Shown: in pieces, positions 478 through 4,427 of the stretch | Numbering within the stretch: position 1 is the stretch's first letter | Layout of the letters: every line of letters starts with the position of its first letter | Source: Candidatus Zambryskiibacteriota bacterium | GTDB taxonomy: Bacteria; Patescibacteriota; Minisyncoccia; Phycocordibacterales; WO2-35-19 | DNA length: 64,000 bases | Direction: 5' to 3' | NCBI GenBank assembly: GCA_048499675.1 | Contig: JASNZL010000009.1 | Span: 303-64,302 of the forward strand | The notes under the pieces: model-generated | What the model was told of the DNA's origin: nothing | What the model saw: the letters and a program-made list of their open reading frames with translations, nothing else | The model's database searches: none | Translations under genes and position numbers: made by a program

Positions 478-490
478 CAGAGGGCCTTCG
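466..490. terminator. bidirectional rho-independent terminator hairpin (ggccccctg-N7-cagagggcc)
   Basis: 9-bp GC stem flanked by T-rich runs on both strands. It lies between the stop of ORF 82..477 (+) and the stop of small ORF 584..498 (-). Confidence 0.55.
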
Positions 491-497
491 GGTTGTG

Positions 498-584
498 TTA
501 CTCGGGAACTGCACCGGAATCCGCATTCGAATCCGCGGAGTAGTCGTCCGATACTGGCGTGTCGGGCTGGTCGTCTTCGTACAT
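498..584 (-). CDS. small acidic peptide (28 aa, MYEDDQPDTPVSDDYSADSNADSGAVPE). Not in the ORF track because it is below the size threshold.
   Basis: ATG sits 8 nt downstream of a GGAGA RBS inside a conserved 62-nt leader. GC-rich coding (~58%). Followed by the terminator hairpin. Confidence 0.4.
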   Translation of the reverse strand: MYEDDQPDTPVSDDYSADSNADSGAVPE

Positions 585-655
585 AATCCAATCTCCTTTC
601 CTCAAGGTAAGCGATTTCTCGCTCCCCTATCCAAAGTACAGGCGAACCTGTCTAA
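585..655 (-). promoter_or_regulatory. conserved promoter plus 5' leader (copy 1) shared with 1593-1665. TATA(A/T)AT -10 box, then AGACRGGTTCGCCTGTACTTTGGATAGGGGAGCGAGAAATCGCTTACCTTGAGGRAAGGAGATT.
   Basis: ~62 nt, about 95% identical to the second copy. Contains an AGCGA-GAAA-UCGCU GNRA-tetraloop hairpin and an AAGGAG RBS. Confidence 0.55.
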
Positions 656-743
656 TTTATATTATTAACATATATTAAATAAAGTCAATATTGACCAAGC
701 ATCTACTGTGTTATAAATAAAGATTATTTCCTATTGTATTTTC

Positions 744-1364
744 TTGATTCAGTTAATACCTTATATTATTGTTAAGAATATGCCCATAAACTTTTTGACT
801 GTCTTATTAATCTTGATAACCGTTTTTAGTTTTATTTTTTTGTTAACCCTACTTTTCTTTTATTTATCAGGATTTATTTCTTTACTCTTTGGTGCGCCAT
901 ATATACCACTCTCAAGAAAACCTATTAAAAAAATTTTGTCATTTGGGGGCCTATCTTCAAATGATGTTTTCTTTGACTTGGGGTGTGGTGATGGTCGGAT
1001 CTTAATACCTAGCCTCCTTAATTTTAATGTCTCGAGAGCCGTTGGTTATGAAATAGCTCCATGGCCATATCTCAAAAGTCTGTTTTTAATTAAATATAAA
1101 CAAATAGAAAGAATAGAACTATTTAGAAAAAATTTTTTGGAGGAAGATTTTAGAGAAGCTACATTTATTTATCTTTATCTATTTCCAAAATTAGTAAACA
1201 AAATTGCTTATAAAATTGCATCAGGAAAGATGTATAATACCAAAATTTTATGTGTTGAATTTCCGATAGACTTAAATAAACACAATGAATTTAAACTTTT
1301 AAAATCTGGCAAAATAGATGGTCTTATGGTGTATTTGTATGTACTAAAACCCCGCAATTCATAA
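744..1364 (+). CDS. membrane-anchored class I SAM-dependent methyltransferase-like protein
   Basis: N-terminal TM helix. Motif I FDLGCGDGRI (GxGxG SAM-binding). AT-rich composition. Confidence 0.45.
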   Translation: MIQLIPYIIVKNMPINFLTVLLILITVFSFIFLLTLLFFYLSGFISLLFGAPYIPLSRKPIKKILSFGGLSSNDVFFDLGCGDGRILIPSLLNFNVSRAVGYEIAPWPYLKSLFLIKYKQIERIELFRKNFLEEDFREATFIYLYLFPKLVNKIAYKIASGKMYNTKILCVEFPIDLNKHNEFKLLKSGKIDGLMVYLYVLKPRNS

Positions 1365-1381
1365 AAACGAATTGCGGGGTT
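1351..1381. terminator. bidirectional terminator hairpin (ccccgcaattc-N8-gaattgcgggg)
   Basis: Perfect 11-bp stem with T-runs on both sides. Serves the 744..1364 (+) and 1398..1592 (-) genes. Confidence 0.6.
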
Positions 1382-1592: not shown

Positions 1593-1665
1593 AGAATCTC
1601 CTTCCCTCAAGGTAAGCGATTTCTCGCTCCCCTATCCAAAGTACAGGCGAACCCGTCTGAATATA
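1593..1665 (-). promoter_or_regulatory. conserved promoter plus 5' leader (copy 2)
   Basis: See 585-655. The motif is identical, including the GNRA hairpin and RBS. Confidence 0.55.
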
Positions 1666-1823
1666 ATAGTATAATTACCTGTATTTTTGTTAAGTTAACA
1701 AGTTTATTTAAAGTTTTTTAATCTCTACAAGATTAAAGATTAAATTTTATATAATTAAAGTATAATAAAGAAAAATCCGCGTGCCTCGGAGAGAGGAACG
1801 CGGATTTTGGAAGGAACTTGTGC

Positions 1824-2990
1824 TCACTTTTCAGGGTGAGCGATTGTCGAGGTGATTGAATCACCTGTTGCGCGAAGGCCCAAGACGGCGATTTTGCAGC
1901 CGGCCTCAGAACCTTCGAAAGTGAGCATTCCTCGGAATGGCAGTTCCTCGGAAACTCTAGTTTGAGCGATGACACCGGTCTTGATGTCACCTCCAAACAG
2001 AGAAGAGACGAGGTTGGCGTACACTCCGCCGGACCAAAGAAGATCTGGTACTTGAGGCAGAATGTTGCCTGCCTCCAACTCCTTGGGCAGATTGTGAGCC
2101 CAGAGCTCTTCCCCACTCCAGCCGTGTGCAGACACACGGACAGTCTGAGGTTTGTCGCAGAGGTTTAGCACTGCGAAGCTCGAGTTGTTGGGAGGCAAGG
2201 TCTGACCCTTAACCTCAACCGGCGTCTCAACCACTGGAACGCTCCAGCGGTTGGTAGCATCAGCCCACCAAGTGATGGGTACAGCCACTTGCCATGGCAT
2301 AGTCCCATTCTTGGTAGTGTATAAGAAGGTCAGTTGCGTCGTGAACGCATCCAACACTTCTTCTGAGGTGCCTTTGAGGATAACCATGACGGAACCAGTG
2401 ACGATTCCGTCCTTTTGGTAGCAGGACACCCCGGTTGAGGTGATACCACACTCGGCGTCACCAACTACAGTATAGGTAGTGTTGCGCCCAGGAGGGTGGC
2501 CGGTCGTTAAACCACTAACCACGGTCTGAAGTGCTGGATTCCCACCCATCACAGACTTCATCTTCCCATCCATTCCTCTGGTAGACATATCGAAGTTGAC
2601 TGCACCCTCAACTAGTGAGTGAAGGTTGCCAATTATTTCAGTTCGCCATTTGCCGTATTGGTCCTCGCCGGCGGCGAACCACGGGAAGTACCCAATGCGT
2701 TCGCATGAGTATCCCCAACCTGGGTCATGACGAAGATAGTACTTGCCACAATCTACAGGAGTGGGGCTAAAGACGTTAACAGCCTGCCGCACCGCTCCCA
2801 CAGAGCGAGTGAAAATATGAGGAGTTGGGACTTTGTAGGTCCTTCCCTCAACCTCAATGGTGAACTCGGGGACATCTTCGTTGATGTCGCTGTTGAGCTG
2901 ATATGGAGCGATCACGACTGGCGTGACCTCTTGCGCCTTGGAGAAACTCCCTAGCGCTAAAAAAATGACAACGAGCATAGAAACCCGCAT
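1824..2990 (-). CDS. secreted protein of unknown function (388 aa), tandem paralog A. GC-rich, likely horizontally acquired.
   Basis: Signal peptide MRVSMLVVIFLALGSFSKAQE. ~50% GC against a ~33% background. ~85% amino-acid identity to 3181..4356. Hairpin terminator at 1769-1808. Confidence 0.6.
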   Translation of the reverse strand: MRVSMLVVIFLALGSFSKAQEVTPVVIAPYQLNSDINEDVPEFTIEVEGRTYKVPTPHIFTRSVGAVRQAVNVFSPTPVDCGKYYLRHDPGWGYSCERIGYFPWFAAGEDQYGKWRTEIIGNLHSLVEGAVNFDMSTRGMDGKMKSVMGGNPALQTVVSGLTTGHPPGRNTTYTVVGDAECGITSTGVSCYQKDGIVTGSVMVILKGTSEEVLDAFTTQLTFLYTTKNGTMPWQVAVPITWWADATNRWSVPVVETPVEVKGQTLPPNNSSFAVLNLCDKPQTVRVSAHGWSGEELWAHNLPKELEAGNILPQVPDLLWSGGVYANLVSSLFGGDIKTGVIAQTRVSEELPFRGMLTFEGSEAGCKIAVLGLRATGDSITSTIAHPEK

Positions 2991-3180
2991 GGAGTTCCTC
3001 CTTCCTAAATCTAATTATACTATATACCTAAATATTGGCTGTTGTCAAGGGTTGCGTAATAGCTAAATACTTAGGATAGCTCTAAATATAGAGCTAATTA
3101 AAAAATGTAAATTTAAAATACCAAAAGAAAAACCCGCGCAGGCCCTTGGGGCGTGCGCGGATTTTGGAAGGAACTCGTGC

Positions 3181-4356
3181 TCACTTTTCAGGGTGAGCGA
3201 TAGTTGAGGTGATTGAATCACCAGTGGCGCGTAGACCGAGAACGGCGATTTTACAGCCGGCCTCGGAGCCTGTGAAGGTGAGGATACCCCGGAATGGCAG
3301 TTCCTCGGAAACTCTAGTTTGAGCGATGACACCGGTCTTGATGTCTTCACCAAACAATGAGGATACGAGATTGGCATACACTCCTCCGGACCAAAGAATG
3401 TCCGGAAGCTGAGGCATAATCTCCCCCGCCTCCAACTCCTTGGGTAGGTTGTGAGCCCACAGCTCTTCCCCACTCCAGCCGTGTGCAGACACACGAATGT
3501 TTTGAGGTTTGTCGCAGAGGTTCACCACTGCGAAACTGGAGTTGTTGGGAGGCAAGGTCTGACCCTTCACCTCAACTGGCGTCTCAACCACTGGAATGAT
3601 CCAGCGATTGGTGGCGTCAGCCAACCAATTGACGGGCACTGCCACTTGCCATGGTATAGTTCCGTTCTTGGTGGTGTAGAGAAAGGTCAGTTGCGTCGTG
3701 AACGCATCCAACACTTCCTCTGATGTACCACTTAGGATGACCATGACGGAACCGGTGACGACTCCGTCTTTTTGGTAGCAGGAGATACCGGTTGAGGTGA
3801 TACCACACTCGGCGTCACCAACAACTACATAGGTGGTGTTACGCCCTGGTGCGTGACCTGTGGCCGAATTACCACTTATTGTCTGAATTGATGGATTTCC
3901 ACCCATAACAGTCTTTGACTTACCATCCATACCCCGCATGGAGATCTGAAAGTTGACAGCTCCCACAACCTGTGAGGAGAGCGAGCCGACGACTTCAGTT
4001 CGCCATTTGCCGTATTGGTTCTCGCCGGCGGCGAACCACGGGAAGTACCCCACACGCTCACAGGTGAAGCCCCAACCTTCGTGGTAACGAAGGTGGTACT
4101 TGCCACAATCTACAGGAGTGGGGCTAAAGACGTTAACAGCCTGCCGCACCGCTCCAACGGAGCGAGTGAAGGTGCTTGGGATTTGGACTTTGTAGGTCCT
4201 TCCCTCGACCTCAACGGTGAACTCAGGAACATCTTCGTTGAGGATGTCGCCAACCAGTTGATATGGAGCGGTCACGATCGGAGTCGTGACCTCTTGCGCC
4301 TTGGAGAAACTCCCAAGCGCTAAAACAATAATGACAACGAGCATAGAAACCCGCAT
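3181..4356 (-). CDS. secreted protein of unknown function (391 aa), tandem paralog B
   Basis: Same architecture as 1824..2990. The duplicated unit includes the upstream UTR and the downstream terminator (3128-3172). Confidence 0.6.
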   Translation of the reverse strand: MRVSMLVVIIVLALGSFSKAQEVTTPIVTAPYQLVGDILNEDVPEFTVEVEGRTYKVQIPSTFTRSVGAVRQAVNVFSPTPVDCGKYHLRYHEGWGFTCERVGYFPWFAAGENQYGKWRTEVVGSLSSQVVGAVNFQISMRGMDGKSKTVMGGNPSIQTISGNSATGHAPGRNTTYVVVGDAECGITSTGISCYQKDGVVTGSVMVILSGTSEEVLDAFTTQLTFLYTTKNGTIPWQVAVPVNWLADATNRWIIPVVETPVEVKGQTLPPNNSSFAVVNLCDKPQNIRVSAHGWSGEELWAHNLPKELEAGEIMPQLPDILWSGGVYANLVSSLFGEDIKTGVIAQTRVSEELPFRGILTFTGSEAGCKIAVLGLRATGDSITSTIAHPEK

Positions 4357-4427
4357 GGAGTTCCTCCTTCCTAAATCTGTTCATACTATATAGTTAAATA
4401 TATGAGTTTGTCAAAGCCAATAGTGGA

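What the first reader, a model, noticed from the sequence alone, without database searches (positions are those of the whole stretch)
480..4400. GC-rich (~50%) island in an AT-rich genome with two tandem secreted 390-aa paralogs
Three patches (480-660, 1385-1680, 1760-4380) have roughly 50-58% GC against a ~33% background, interleaved with AT-rich native-looking ORFs. The main cargo is a tandemly duplicated gene (1824..2990 and 3181..4356, ~85% aa identity) with a signal peptide and no homolog I can recognise. The duplicated unit includes the flanking UTR and terminator. The protein is beta-rich and has an amphipathic Ser/Thr-alternating stretch (GITSTGVSCYQKDGIVTGSVMVIL) reminiscent of the insertion hairpin of aerolysin-like pore-forming toxins. 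That is speculative. The pattern is consistent with recent horizontal acquisition followed by tandem amplification.
Basis: partly seen in the sequence, partly recalled or inferred. Interest (0 to 1): 0.65.

Follow-up and report, generated by a model that had tools for sequence, protein, structure and literature searches.

The report
Persistently GC-rich secreted-protein gene duplicates
Two old tandem copies of a gene for a secreted protein of an undescribed family sit in an AT-rich groundwater bacterium; they seem to have stayed GC-rich for a very long time because their messenger RNAs are selected to be unusually tightly folded, not because they were recently imported.

Summary
Window 1800-4380 has 50-58% GC against about 35%. 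GC3 of the two minus-strand paralogs (1824..2990, 3181..4356; 85% aa identity) is 0.57-0.58, against 0.27 +/- 0.04 for 31 other genes.

The protein has a signal peptide and belongs to a tiny uncharacterised family (64 clusters among 1.84 billion). AlphaFold models two beta-sandwich domains. There is no aerolysin-like match; one domain resembles TM1070/ASRAH, a CBM-like fold.

The acquisition is not recent:
- A syntenic ortholog at 33% identity (L021) is also GC3-rich.
- Polarised synonymous changes are balanced (S->W 49, W->S 38), which fits an equilibrium and not amelioration.
- The duplication is old (dS 0.53) and shared with two other genomes.

The coding sequences fold far more stably than synonymous-codon permutations (z -5 to -6; native controls about 0). 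The small GC-rich genes in the other two patches do the same. Those patches are separate small-peptide genes behind a conserved, undescribed promoter-leader motif.

Best reading: a class of strongly promoted, hyper-structured, GC-rich transcripts maintained by selection. Protein function (surface or glycan binding) is inferred only weakly.

The parts
3181..4356 (-). Paralog A CDS (391 aa, P0001): signal peptide, a low-confidence (probably disordered) N-terminal extension of about 55 aa, and two beta-sandwich domains
   Evidence: ORF. Homologs. dN/dS 0.05-0.42 along the gene. AF2 pLDDT 85. GC3 0.58. mRNA structure z=-5.9.
1824..2990 (-). Paralog B CDS (388 aa, P0004)
   Evidence: ORF. 85% aa identity to A, dN 0.092, dS 0.53. 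GC3 0.57. mRNA structure z=-6.4.
4385..4414 (-). Promoter-like site of paralog A (TTGACA-18-TATAGT, 11 of 12). It is followed by the 5'UTR with the SD AGGAAGGAGG (4357-4384).
   Evidence: One of the two best-scoring promoter-like sites in 1-6500. Conserved in L001, L002 and L003.
3019..3048 (-). Promoter-like site of paralog B (TTGACA-18-TATAGT, 11 of 12). It is followed by the 5'UTR with the same SD (2991-3018).
   Evidence: (D2).
3128..3165 (-). Intrinsic terminator of paralog A (AAAATCCGCGCACGCCCCAAGGGCCTGCGCGGGTTTTT)
   Evidence: Read from the sequence. The same hairpin follows copy 1 in L010 and L011.
1771..1808 (-). Intrinsic terminator of paralog B (AAAATCCGCGTTCCTCTCTCCGAGGCACGCGGATTTTT)
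   Evidence: Read from the sequence. The same hairpin follows the single copy in L003.
3049..3127 (-). AT-rich spacer between the two copies
   Evidence: Nearly identical spacer in L010 (between copy 1 and the start of copy 2) and in L011 (between the end of copy 1 and copy 2).
4428..5378 (-). Conserved upstream partner gene: a 316-aa Thr/Ser-rich protein with 10 Cys, an N-terminal hydrophobic segment and native codon usage
   Evidence: It precedes the GC-rich gene in L001, L002, L003, L004, L010 and L021, in at least two different chromosomal contexts. GC3 0.26.
1398..1589 (-). Patch 2 gene: a conserved 63-aa protein (WKDKGVCCN...ETGEERQIRVD family), GC 0.48
   Evidence: Homologs P0077-P0080, all next to a convergent DOT1-like methyltransferase gene. 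mRNA structure z=-4.0; the L017 ortholog gives -5.6.
1587..1663 (-). Conserved 5' leader motif, copy 2: a 5'-terminal hairpin, ACUUUGGAUAGG, a second hairpin, then the SD. Its promoter-like site lies at 1666-1693.
   Evidence: (D3).
582..658 (-). Conserved 5' leader motif, copy 1, with a promoter-like site at 661-688 (TTGACT-16-AATAAT)
   Evidence: (D3).
498..584 (-). Patch 1 gene: a 28-aa acidic peptide (MYEDDQPDTPVSDDYSADSNADSGAVPE), GC 0.57-0.60. A terminator hairpin at about 459-488 is shared with the convergent gene 82..477.
   Evidence: Translation. Related 'SDDYSxDSDADSG' peptides lie behind the same leader in L021, L024 and L026.
744..1364 (+). Native AT-rich gene lying between patches 1 and 2: a DOT1-like methyltransferase, convergent with the 63-aa gene and sharing the bidirectional terminator at 1347-1382
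   Evidence: Pfam DOT1, E 3.4e-4, below the cut-off. Orthologs at 64-71% sit in the same arrangement in L014, L017 and L026. Terminator.

Best explanation
The window holds three independent, strongly promoted, monocistronic transcription units whose GC-richness is a long-maintained property of the transcripts. It is not a scar of recent import.

The main unit is a tandem pair of genes for a Sec-exported protein of about 40 kDa. The protein has four conserved cysteines and is built from two beta-sandwich domains of an uncharacterised family.

The family is otherwise found mostly in high-GC bacteria such as Acidobacteriia. There it also occurs as a C-terminal module behind Kelch propellers, a beta-helix, or a PA-domain protein with M36-peptidase matches. 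That placement is how substrate- or surface-binding modules behave.

An ancestor of a small lineage of AT-rich groundwater bacteria has carried the gene for a long time. The lineage looks CPR/Patescibacteria-like, but that is an inference. The gene always lies just downstream of a Thr/Ser-rich exported protein. The origin may have been an ancient transfer.

The gene was duplicated in tandem before the sampled tandem-bearing genomes diverged. The copies have since exchanged segments.

Synonymous sites sit at a compositional equilibrium near 55% GC. The coding RNA is far more base-paired than its amino-acid sequence and codon usage require, while the ribosome-binding region is kept open.

I infer that selection acts on the mRNA (stability and output of a very abundant secreted protein) and that this selection keeps the gene GC-rich.

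Shown:
- the composition and the compositional equilibrium;
- the age of the gene and of the duplication;
- the synteny;
- purifying selection;
- the excess RNA structure;
- the fold class.

Inferred:
- high expression;
- mRNA stability as the selected trait;
- glycan or surface binding as the protein's job;
- the taxonomy.
For: Composition:
- GC and GC3 are outliers by about 8 sd.
- The codon shift is towards NNC, AAG, GAG and CGN.

A real gene:
- dN/dS is 0.05-0.42 in every 30-codon window.
- There are 9 close homologs and 64 HMM-detected cluster representatives.
- Signal peptides occur throughout the family.
- Invariant C84, C99, C184 and C193.

Fold:
- AF2 pLDDT 85, above 90 over residues 80-390, all-beta.
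- One domain matches TM1070 with TM 0.70. TM1070 is an ASRAH domain with CBM4-like topology and is predicted to bind sugars (PMC2739507).
- Most other listed weak matches are lectins, CBMs or glycosidase beta-sandwiches.
- In longer homologs the domain is C-terminal, behind Kelch, beta-helix or PA-domain regions.

An old resident:
- L021 has tm170, sec326, GC340, the leader plus acidic peptide, and the orf131 homolog in the same order. Identity to the window proteins is 24-46%.
- GC3 of that ortholog is 0.46, against 0.19-0.31 for its neighbours.
- In an NJ tree the window clade is sister to the L021/P0010 clade.

Compositional equilibrium:
- Fitch-polarised synonymous changes: S->W 49, W->S 38. 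In-clade triplets are also near 1:1.
- Simulation through the same pipeline under the native bias gives ratios of 2.2-7.3, with 0 of 60 replicates as low as observed, and tip GC3 of 0.38-0.48.
- An equilibrium at 0.55 reproduces the data.

An old, shared duplication:
- dS is 0.53 and the tree is star-like.
- L010 and L011 show the same tandem junction and spacer.
- Identity between the copies is mosaic.

RNA structure (full-CDS MFE against synonymous-codon permutations):
- Lineage genes: winA z=-5.9, winB -6.4, L003 -5.3, L021 -5.4, L002 -2.3, L012 -2.2.
- Native controls: S41 0.0, PheS-like +0.2, sec316 +1.0.
- Homologs in GC-rich genomes: L008 -0.75, L006 -0.66.
- The 5' end is less structured than the permutations, z +1.3 and +1.6.
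- Small GC-rich genes behave alike: 63-aa gene -4.0 and -5.6, DUF397 gene -2.8, controls about 0.

Expression signals:
- The two 11-of-12 promoter matches lie exactly upstream of the two copies.
- The extended SD AGGAAGGAGG is conserved.
Against: - There are no expression, proteome or half-life data, so high expression is inferred from consensus signals only.
- RNAalifold over CDS nt 560-920 gives many conserved pairs but a covariation term of about 0. No specific conserved fold is proven.
- The structure excess is weaker in L002 and L012 (z about -2). It is present in one GC-rich-genome homolog (P0009, z -4.0), so it is not strictly lineage-specific.
- P0008 (L012/L013) is 67% identical, has the same N-terminal extension and SD, and has GC-rich flanks (0.57 and 0.66). 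At least one further transfer between GC-rich and AT-rich genomes has therefore happened, in an unknown direction.
- Parsimony polarisation is approximate. The native-gene control is visibly biased by saturation.
- The ribosomal protein L9 gene is not GC3-rich (0.23). General translational selection therefore cannot be the cause, and the mRNA-level argument is gene-specific.
- The binding function rests on a single-domain fold resemblance and on domain architecture.
- The taxonomy was not verified.
Confidence: 0.5

Rival explanations
1. One reading: a recent horizontal acquisition from a GC-rich donor, not yet ameliorated, followed by recent tandem amplification. All three patches belong to one island.
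For: - Composition is foreign-looking in both nucleotides and amino acids: GARP/FYMINK is 1.1-1.6 against 0.6-0.9 for native proteins.
- Family members whose DNA was fetched from other lineages sit in 55-62% GC contigs and match their flanks.
- A related genome (L014) lacks the gene at this locus.
Against: - The syntenic ortholog at 33% identity in L021 is still GC3-rich.
- Synonymous flux is balanced, whereas amelioration predicts at least 2.2:1.
- Paralog dS is 0.53 and the tandem junction is shared with L010 and L011.
- No integrase, tRNA or flanking direct repeats are present.
- Patches 1 and 2 are lineage-conserved genes.
Confidence: 0.06
2. GC-biased gene conversion: the locus is a recombination hot spot among co-occurring strains, and biased repair drives synonymous sites towards GC.
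For: - Neighbour identities are mosaic. S41 is 93% identical to L001 but 72-74% to L003, whereas HlyD is 58-59% to L001 but 84-85% to L003.
- L001 and L002 are 99.7% identical over 15.4 kb, with 46 of 52 differences inside 400 bp at the 5' end of the gene.
- The paralogs are mosaic.
Against: - GC enrichment stops sharply at the ends of the transcription unit.
- The adjacent, equally recombining sec316 and tm172 genes have native or only slightly raised GC3, 0.26 and 0.35.
- gBGC does not predict the excess RNA structure.
Confidence: 0.1
3. Ongoing xenolog exchange with a GC-rich partner organism, possibly a host, keeps re-seeding GC-rich alleles.
For: - P0008 (L012/L013) is 67% identical, has the same N-terminal extension and SD, and has GC-rich flanks.
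- P0009, in a contig with 62% GC flanks, is among the nearest outgroups.
Against: - The seven AT-rich-context sequences form a clade, with L012 as the sister used to root it. Their promoter, spacer and partner gene are conserved.
- Within that clade the synonymous flux is balanced, even with in-clade outgroups.
- Only 243 bp of flank is known for L012.
Confidence: 0.12
4. The protein is an aerolysin-like beta-pore-forming toxin, and the Ser/Thr-alternating stretch is its membrane-insertion hairpin.
For: - The stretch GITSTG(I/V)SCYQKDG(V/I)VTGSVMVIL alternates polar and hydrophobic residues.
- The protein is secreted and beta-rich.
- Cry-toxin entries appear among the weak Foldseek matches.
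Against: - There is no Pfam match to the aerolysin or ETX/MTX2 families.
- None of the 50 listed PDB matches is an aerolysin-type structure, and whole-chain TM scores are at most 0.23.
- The stretch is modelled at pLDDT above 90 as strands of the first sandwich and contains two invariant cysteines, probably disulfide-linked.
- In homologs the domain is a C-terminal appendage of enzymes.
Confidence: 0.03
5. The GC-richness and base-pairing serve something other than the mRNA of the annotated protein: an overlapping or antisense gene, an embedded non-coding RNA, or a DNA-level element.
For: - Long alternative-frame and antisense ORFs exist, for example 3063..3494 (143 aa) and 4015..4323 (102 aa).
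- Local structure excess is concentrated at CDS nt 1-240 and 600-900.
Against: - GC-rich DNA yields long spurious ORFs by chance.
- The annotated frame is under strong purifying selection and has homologs.
- There is no Rfam match at any threshold.
- No significant covariation was found.
Confidence: 0.05

Closest known systems
ASRAH / TM1070 (Pfam DUF1362) and CBM4-type beta-sandwich binding modules
   Same: - One domain of the model superposes on TM1070 (PDB 1NC7) with a target-normalised TM of 0.70.
- ASRAH domains are beta-sandwiches with CBM4-like topology, predicted to bind sugars or small molecules (PMC2739507).
- Like CBMs, the domain is appended to enzymes in some homologs.
   Different: - There is no sequence match to DUF1362 or to any CBM family.
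- Here two sandwiches form a unit of about 310 aa with four conserved cysteines and the signature CGKY...C.R.G.FPWFAAG.
- No ligand-binding residues could be identified.
Compositionally atypical genomic islands from horizontal transfer
   Same: - There is a sharp GC and codon-usage discontinuity.
- The family is otherwise found in GC-rich bacteria.
- The gene is absent from one related genome, L014.
   Different: - There are no mobility genes, tRNA or flanking repeats.
- The gene is ancient and syntenic across deep divergence.
- Synonymous composition is at equilibrium rather than decaying.
Selection for mRNA secondary structure and GC content in coding regions
   Same: - Native coding sequences fold better than synonymous-codon permutations, while the start region stays open.
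- From my own knowledge, not retrieved here: Katz & Burge 2003, local structure in bacterial coding regions; Raghavan, Kelkar & Ochman 2012, selection favouring G+C in bacterial genes; Mauger et al. 2019, CDS structure and functional mRNA half-life.
[quoted passage not shown]
   Different: - From recollection, the effect here looks much larger than the modest genome-wide shifts described.
- The effect is confined to a few genes.
- It goes with a GC3 shift of about 30 points that has been held over long divergence in an AT-rich genome.
5'-terminal stabilising stem-loops of bacterial mRNAs (for example the ompA and Bacillus aprE/ermC leaders; own knowledge)
   Same: The leader of the two small genes starts with a hairpin a few nucleotides after the predicted -10 element. 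It has a second hairpin ending just before a strong SD.
   Different: - It is a sequence-conserved motif of about 65 nt, reused upstream of many unrelated small-peptide genes in one lineage.
- It is not in Rfam 15.
- Whether it stabilises the mRNA or regulates it is unknown.
Aerolysin / ETX-MTX2 beta-pore-forming toxins
   Same: The protein is secreted and beta-rich, and has an alternating Ser/Thr-hydrophobic stretch.
   Different: There is no sequence or fold match. The stretch is an integral strand pair of a sandwich with two invariant cysteines, probably disulfide-linked.

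Membership tests
Aerolysin / ETX-MTX2 pore-forming toxins | Sequence match to the aerolysin or ETX/MTX2 Pfam families | tested here: not met
   No Pfam hit for either paralog at E<=1. Among the up-to-25 most frequent families listed for the 37 members, none is an aerolysin or ETX/MTX2 family at E<=10.
Aerolysin / ETX-MTX2 pore-forming toxins | Elongated aerolysin-type fold with a detachable amphipathic insertion hairpin | tested here: not met
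Recently acquired genomic island | Atypical base composition and codon usage | tested here: met
   GC3 0.57-0.58 against 0.27 +/- 0.04.
Recently acquired genomic island | Restricted to close relatives and absent from the syntenic locus of deeper relatives | tested here: not met
   Absent in L014, but present in synteny at 33% identity in L021.
Recently acquired genomic island | Mobility signatures at the borders (integrase or transposase, tRNA, direct repeats) | tested here: not met
   The only tRNA is at 20134-20205. No flanking direct repeats were reported in 1-6000. No integrase or transposase domain was found among the ORFs scanned at 82-6371. An rve-like IS sits beside the L021 ortholog only; that assignment is by reading the sequence, not a family search.
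Recently acquired genomic island | Ongoing amelioration, that is a net GC->AT synonymous flux | tested here: not met
   S->W 49 against W->S 38. Simulated amelioration gives ratios of 2.2-7.3 and never as low as observed (0 of 60 replicates).
ASRAH (DUF1362) / CBM-like sugar-binding beta-sandwich | Beta-sandwich fold superposable on a family member | tested here: met
   1NC7: probability 1.00, target-normalised TM 0.68-0.70, 150 aligned columns, one domain only.
ASRAH (DUF1362) / CBM-like sugar-binding beta-sandwich | Sequence-profile membership and the conserved ligand-pocket residues (His and Cys in TM1070) | tested here: not met
   No DUF1362 or CBM family is among the Pfam families listed.
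ASRAH (DUF1362) / CBM-like sugar-binding beta-sandwich | Carbohydrate binding | not testable with these tools
   This needs glycan arrays or pull-downs.
Sec-exported protein | N-terminal signal peptide (n-h-c regions and a cleavage motif) | tested here: met
   By inspection: MR-VSMLVVIIVLALGSFS-KA|QE. Equivalent N-termini occur in nearly all full-length family members. AF2 models helix 4-15. No dedicated predictor was available.
T9SS C-terminal sorting domain / FlgD Ig-like | Significant match to Por_Secre_tail or FlgD_ig | tested here: not met
   Only 4 of 37 members hit FlgD_ig, best E 0.014.
Known RNA family (Rfam 15) for the shared leader | Covariance-model match | tested here: not met
   There is no match at gathering or at E<=1 over 400-4500. 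My own model R1 finds 1-3 copies per related contig. 97.5% of cells are paired, but only 2 pairs show compensatory change.

The most novel reading that the evidence does not exclude
A small lineage of ultra-small groundwater bacteria keeps a dedicated class of 'hardened' transcripts. These have consensus promoters and 5' hairpin leaders, and their coding regions are driven to about 50-55% GC and to extreme base-pairing by selection on the RNA itself, in a 35% GC genome. One arm of the class is a reusable promoter-leader cassette of about 65 nt. It is an undescribed RNA motif that drives a set of unrelated small acidic or Cys/Asp-rich peptides, DUF397 proteins and the 63-aa family. The other arm is the secreted two-sandwich protein. 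This would be a previously undescribed expression strategy, and a cautionary case where a compositional 'island' is not HGT.
Probability: 0.35. Interest if true: 0.75.

Novelty: new variant of a known kind. Interest (0 to 1): 0.55.

Why it matters
1. Compositional outliers are routinely read as recent horizontal transfer. Here the same signal persists across saturated divergence, sits at substitutional equilibrium and coincides with a large excess of mRNA structure. If that holds, it is a clear natural example of RNA-level selection setting the GC content of individual genes against a strong genomic AT bias.

2. The protein defines an uncharacterised secreted two-domain family with a confident model. 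It is conserved with a partner gene in bacteria that look like CPR-type symbionts, where surface proteins are the likely mediators of host contact.

3. The shared leader marks a candidate regulon of small peptides that no database describes.

Tried and rejected
- Family searches found nothing for the core domain: Pfam, NCBIfam, PADLOC, PHROGs and a PDB sequence profile.
- tblastn against plasmids gave no match.
- The first AF2 run with 9 sequences was too poor to use, pLDDT 53. It was replaced by the 37-sequence run.
- Foldseek against PDB and BFVD gave no whole-chain match: TM at most 0.23, except the single-domain 1NC7 hit.
- The genome-contig scan returned only a distant Acidobacteriia homolog and did not identify the organism.
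- The exact-sequence look-up gave no names or taxonomy, and P0001 had no contig on record.
- The exact-match metagenome scan for the 41-nt leader core found nothing. A degenerate 22-mer worked.
- There is no sign of positive selection in any 30-codon window.
- The 599-aa GC-rich gene of L014 and the sec316 partner are unrelated to the family.
- The native-gene control for polarised substitutions is distorted by saturation and composition (S->W 94, W->S 173), so I relied on simulation through the same pipeline instead.
- RNAalifold gave no net covariation in the CDS.
- The literature search on CPR, HGT and codon usage found nothing on this phenomenon.

Full report
**1. The observation**

- A sliding 200-nt profile gives GC 0.50-0.58 from 1801 to 4300. 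It gives 0.45-0.48 at 401-700 and 1301-1600, and about 0.22-0.40 in between and beyond.
- In 1-kb bins over the whole 64 kb, the bins 2001-3000 (0.533) and 3001-4000 (0.499) are the highest. Most bins lie at 0.30-0.42.
- Two ORFs occupy the stated coordinates, on the minus strand: 1824..2990 (388 aa) and 3181..4356 (391 aa). They are 85% identical in protein.
- Their GC3 is 0.57 and 0.58. For 31 other genes of the window it averages 0.274 with sd 0.037, about 8 sd away.
- The repeated unit is 4414->3097 against 3048->1739, 82.9% identical over 1322 columns. It includes the promoter, 5'UTR and terminator.

**2. Anatomy of the main unit**

- Each copy has one of the two best sigma-70-like sites found in 1-6500: TTGACA-18-TATAGT, 11 of 12, at 4414..4385 and 3048..3019 on the minus strand.
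- Each has an extended Shine-Dalgarno AGGAAGGAGG just before the ATG, and a GC-rich hairpin followed by a T-run after the stop.
- GC enrichment begins at the SD and ends at the terminator. The promoter and the inter-copy spacer are AT-rich.
- The protein starts with a typical signal peptide, MRVSMLVVIIVLALGSFSKA|QE.
- Purifying selection holds throughout. dN/dS is 0.05-0.19 over the folded part and 0.25-0.42 over the first 80 or so residues, in 30-codon windows pooled over seven sequences.

**3. What the protein is**

- Only 9 proteins among 5.8 billion clusters match at E<=1e-3. Eight of them are 67-100% identical.
- An exhaustive profile search finds 64 cluster representatives among 1.84 billion.
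- None of Pfam, NCBIfam, PADLOC, PHROGs or a PDB sequence profile recognises the core domain.
- Family members share a signal peptide, the motif CGKY...C.R.G.FPWFAAG.GW.T and four conserved cysteines.
- With 37 sequences AlphaFold2 gives pLDDT 85.1 and pTM 0.79, with pLDDT above 90 over residues 80-390. The model is all-beta, and I read it as two sandwiches (about 80-230 and 235-390). Residues 20-78 are of low confidence and form an extension unique to the AT-rich clade.
- Foldseek finds no whole-chain relative in the PDB or BFVD (query-normalised TM at most 0.23). One domain superposes on TM1070/1NC7: probability 1.00, target-normalised TM 0.70.
- TM1070 is an ASRAH domain. This is a beta-sandwich with CBM4-like topology, predicted to bind sugars or small molecules (PMC2739507).
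- The other listed weak matches are mostly lectins, CBMs and glycosidase sandwiches.
- In longer homologs the domain is C-terminal. It follows Kelch propellers (P0020, P0031), a right-handed beta-helix (P0028), or a PA-domain protein (P0045). One member, presumably P0045, also matches M36 peptidase models in NCBIfam. That is how targeting or binding modules behave.
- The stretch that suggested an aerolysin hairpin is a confidently modelled strand pair inside the first sandwich. It carries invariant C184 and C193. No aerolysin-type structure or family is matched.

**4. Relatives and age**

Six independent assemblies (JGI, ENA, Logan) carry the gene inside AT-rich contigs, so this is not an assembly artefact. 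In all of them the gene has 51-53% GC against 34-36% for the rest.

The gene always follows a Thr/Ser-rich, 10-Cys exported protein with native codon usage (window 4428..5378). That pair occurs in at least two chromosomal contexts: after an ABC/FtsX/HlyD-like operon, and after uvrC in L010.

- One related genome, L014, has the same operon but lacks the pair.
- A much more distant relative, L021, has the same order: tm170, sec326, a 340-aa homolog (33% identity), the leader plus an acidic peptide, then an orf131 homolog. Its neighbour proteins are 24-46% identical to the window's.
- That homolog has GC3 0.46 against 0.19-0.31 around it.
- In an NJ tree the window clade is sister to the L021/P0010 clade.
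- The homologs fetched from other lineages lie in 55-62% GC contigs and match their flanks. One of these contigs is an Acidobacteriia MAG.

The gene is therefore an old resident of this AT-rich lineage, possibly after an ancient transfer.

One complication remains. P0008 (L012/L013) is 67% identical and has the same extension and SD, but GC-rich flanks (0.57 and 0.66 over 243 bp). At least one further transfer has occurred, in an unknown direction.

**5. Is the GC-richness a leftover or is it maintained?**

- Among eight sequences, 185 codon columns are strictly synonymous-only. Fitch polarisation on these gives S->W 49 and W->S 38. Triplets with in-clade outgroups are also near 1:1.
- I simulated third positions along the same tree and passed them through the same pipeline.
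  - With the native equilibrium (GC3 0.27) and root GC3 of 0.7-0.9, the ratio is 2.2-7.3. None of 60 replicates is as low as observed, and tip GC3 falls to 0.38-0.48.
  - With an equilibrium of 0.55, the ratio (1.14-1.16), the tip GC3 (0.55) and the pairwise identities are all reproduced.
- Together with the L021 ortholog, this says the gene sits at its own compositional equilibrium.
- General translational selection is unlikely, because the ribosomal protein L9 gene has GC3 0.23.

**6. RNA structure**

I compared the full-CDS minimum free energy with permutations that shuffle synonymous codons among positions of the same amino acid.

| Group | z-scores |
|---|---|
| Genes of this lineage | winA -5.9, winB -6.4, L003 -5.3, L021 -5.4, L002 -2.3, L012 -2.2 |
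| Native control genes | S41 0.0, PheS-like +0.2, sec316 +1.0 |
| Homologs in GC-rich genomes | L008 -0.75, L006 -0.66, P0009 -4.0 |

- The 5'UTR plus the first 45 nt is less structured than the permutations, z +1.3 and +1.6.
- Local excess is concentrated at CDS nt 1-240 and about 600-900, in winA, winB, L003 and L021.
- RNAalifold over nt 560-920 predicts 94 pairs, 10 of them with a compensatory change, but a covariation term of about 0. No particular fold is proven.

**7. The duplication**

- dN is 0.092 and dS 0.53 between the copies. That is comparable to the divergence between genomes, dS 0.66-0.91.
- The tree is star-like, with A and B only weakly sister.
- Identity profiles are mosaic, which indicates exchange between the copies and among alleles.
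- L010 ends in the start of a second copy. L011 begins with the end of a first copy. Both have the same spacer of about 70 nt as the window.
- L001, L002 and L003 have a single copy.

The duplication is old and shared. It is not a recent amplification.

**8. The two small patches**

- Patch 2 (1385-1680) is a 63-aa gene at 1398..1589 on the minus strand. It is conserved in the lineage (62-87% identity) and always convergent with a DOT1-like methyltransferase gene.
- Patch 1 (480-660) is a 28-aa acidic peptide gene at 498..584 on the minus strand.
- Both are preceded by the same leader, 94% identical over 72 nt. It consists of a -35/-10 site, a hairpin ACAGG-loop-CCUGU, the sequence ACUUUGGAUAGG, a second hairpin, the SD, then the ATG.
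- The leader is absent from Rfam 15.
- A degenerate 22-mer found it in 10 metagenome contigs. Most are Hainich groundwater assemblies, several labelled '01um', which I read as 0.1-um filter fractions.
- A covariance model finds 1-3 copies per contig. It also finds a divergent copy in L014 with two compensatory pairs. Overall 97.5% of cells are paired, and 8 of 500 shuffles reach the observed values.
- The genes behind the leader are unrelated to one another: small acidic or Cys/Asp-rich peptides, a DUF397 protein and the 63-aa family. All have 47-60% GC against 33-42% background.
- Their coding regions are also hyper-structured: z -4.0 and -5.6 for the 63-aa gene, -2.8 for the L001 DUF397 gene, and controls about 0.

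The three patches are therefore not one island, but they share one property.

**9. Conclusion**

The best-supported reading is a class of strongly promoted, GC-rich, highly base-paired transcripts maintained by selection at the RNA level. The most likely selected trait is mRNA stability and yield.

The largest member encodes an abundant secreted two-sandwich protein, probably surface- or glycan-binding. It has long been resident in this lineage and was duplicated anciently.

- High expression, the selected trait, the binding function and the CPR-like taxonomy are inferences.
- The taxonomy rests on the groundwater origin of the contigs, the small-filter-fraction labels, AT-richness, type IV pilin-like genes and giant LamG proteins.

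Noticed in passing
window 582-658 (-) and 1587-1663 (-); also L014, L017 and L020-L029: A conserved promoter-plus-leader RNA motif of about 65 nt that is not in Rfam. It is reused upstream of unrelated small acidic or Cys/Asp-rich peptide genes, a DUF397 gene and the 63-aa family, in groundwater contigs (several from Hainich). There are 1-3 copies per contig and only 2 in this 64-kb window. It is a candidate regulon or expression cassette.
   Followed up: partly
window 27330-27830: An intergenic array of about 500 bp made of octamer-like purine-rich repeats (GATAGGAC, AATAGGAC, GATGGGAC), with about three higher-order units. It lies between a MurJ gene and a 220-aa gene. The + strand GC skew in that kilobase is -0.51.
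   Followed up: no
L001 versus L002, locus positions 9900-10300: Two contigs from different samples are 99.7% identical over 15.4 kb. Of their 52 differences, 46 fall in the promoter and first 300 nt of the GC-rich gene (signal peptide and N-terminal extension), including single-base indels in L001. This is either a recombination patch or a population-heterogeneity artefact.
   Followed up: partly
L012/L013 (P0008): A 67%-identical homolog with the same N-terminal extension and SD lies between GC-rich flanks (0.57 and 0.66). This implies a transfer between an AT-rich and a GC-rich genome, in an unknown direction.
   Followed up: partly
L021 2413-3237 (+): A 274-aa ORF lies between the partner gene and the 340-aa ortholog. 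I read its sequence as an rve-type (IS) transposase, but no family search was run on it. It is the only mobility-like gene seen next to any member of the module.
   Followed up: no
L001 11522-11746 and L002 11520-11744; L017 about 1156-1365: GC-rich DUF397 genes, a family I know mainly from actinobacteria. One lies directly downstream of the GC-rich gene in L001 and L002. Another lies behind the shared leader in L017. The L001 coding region also shows excess structure, z -2.8.
   Followed up: partly
window 744-1364 (+) with 1398-1589 (-): A DOT1-like methyltransferase gene and the 63-aa gene form a conserved convergent pair that shares a bidirectional terminator. The pair recurs in L014, L017, L026 and L028.
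   Followed up: partly
window 6568-17513 compared with L001 and L003: Relatedness is mosaic along the syntenic block. The S41 peptidase is 93% identical to L001 but 72-74% to L003. The HlyD-like adaptor is 58-59% identical to L001 but 84-85% to L003. This points to frequent homologous recombination among these lineages.
   Followed up: no
L014 7077-8876 (-): In the relative that lacks the 390-aa gene, a different, unannotated 599-aa gene near the same place is also locally GC-rich (0.47-0.56). It is unrelated to the family.
   Followed up: partly
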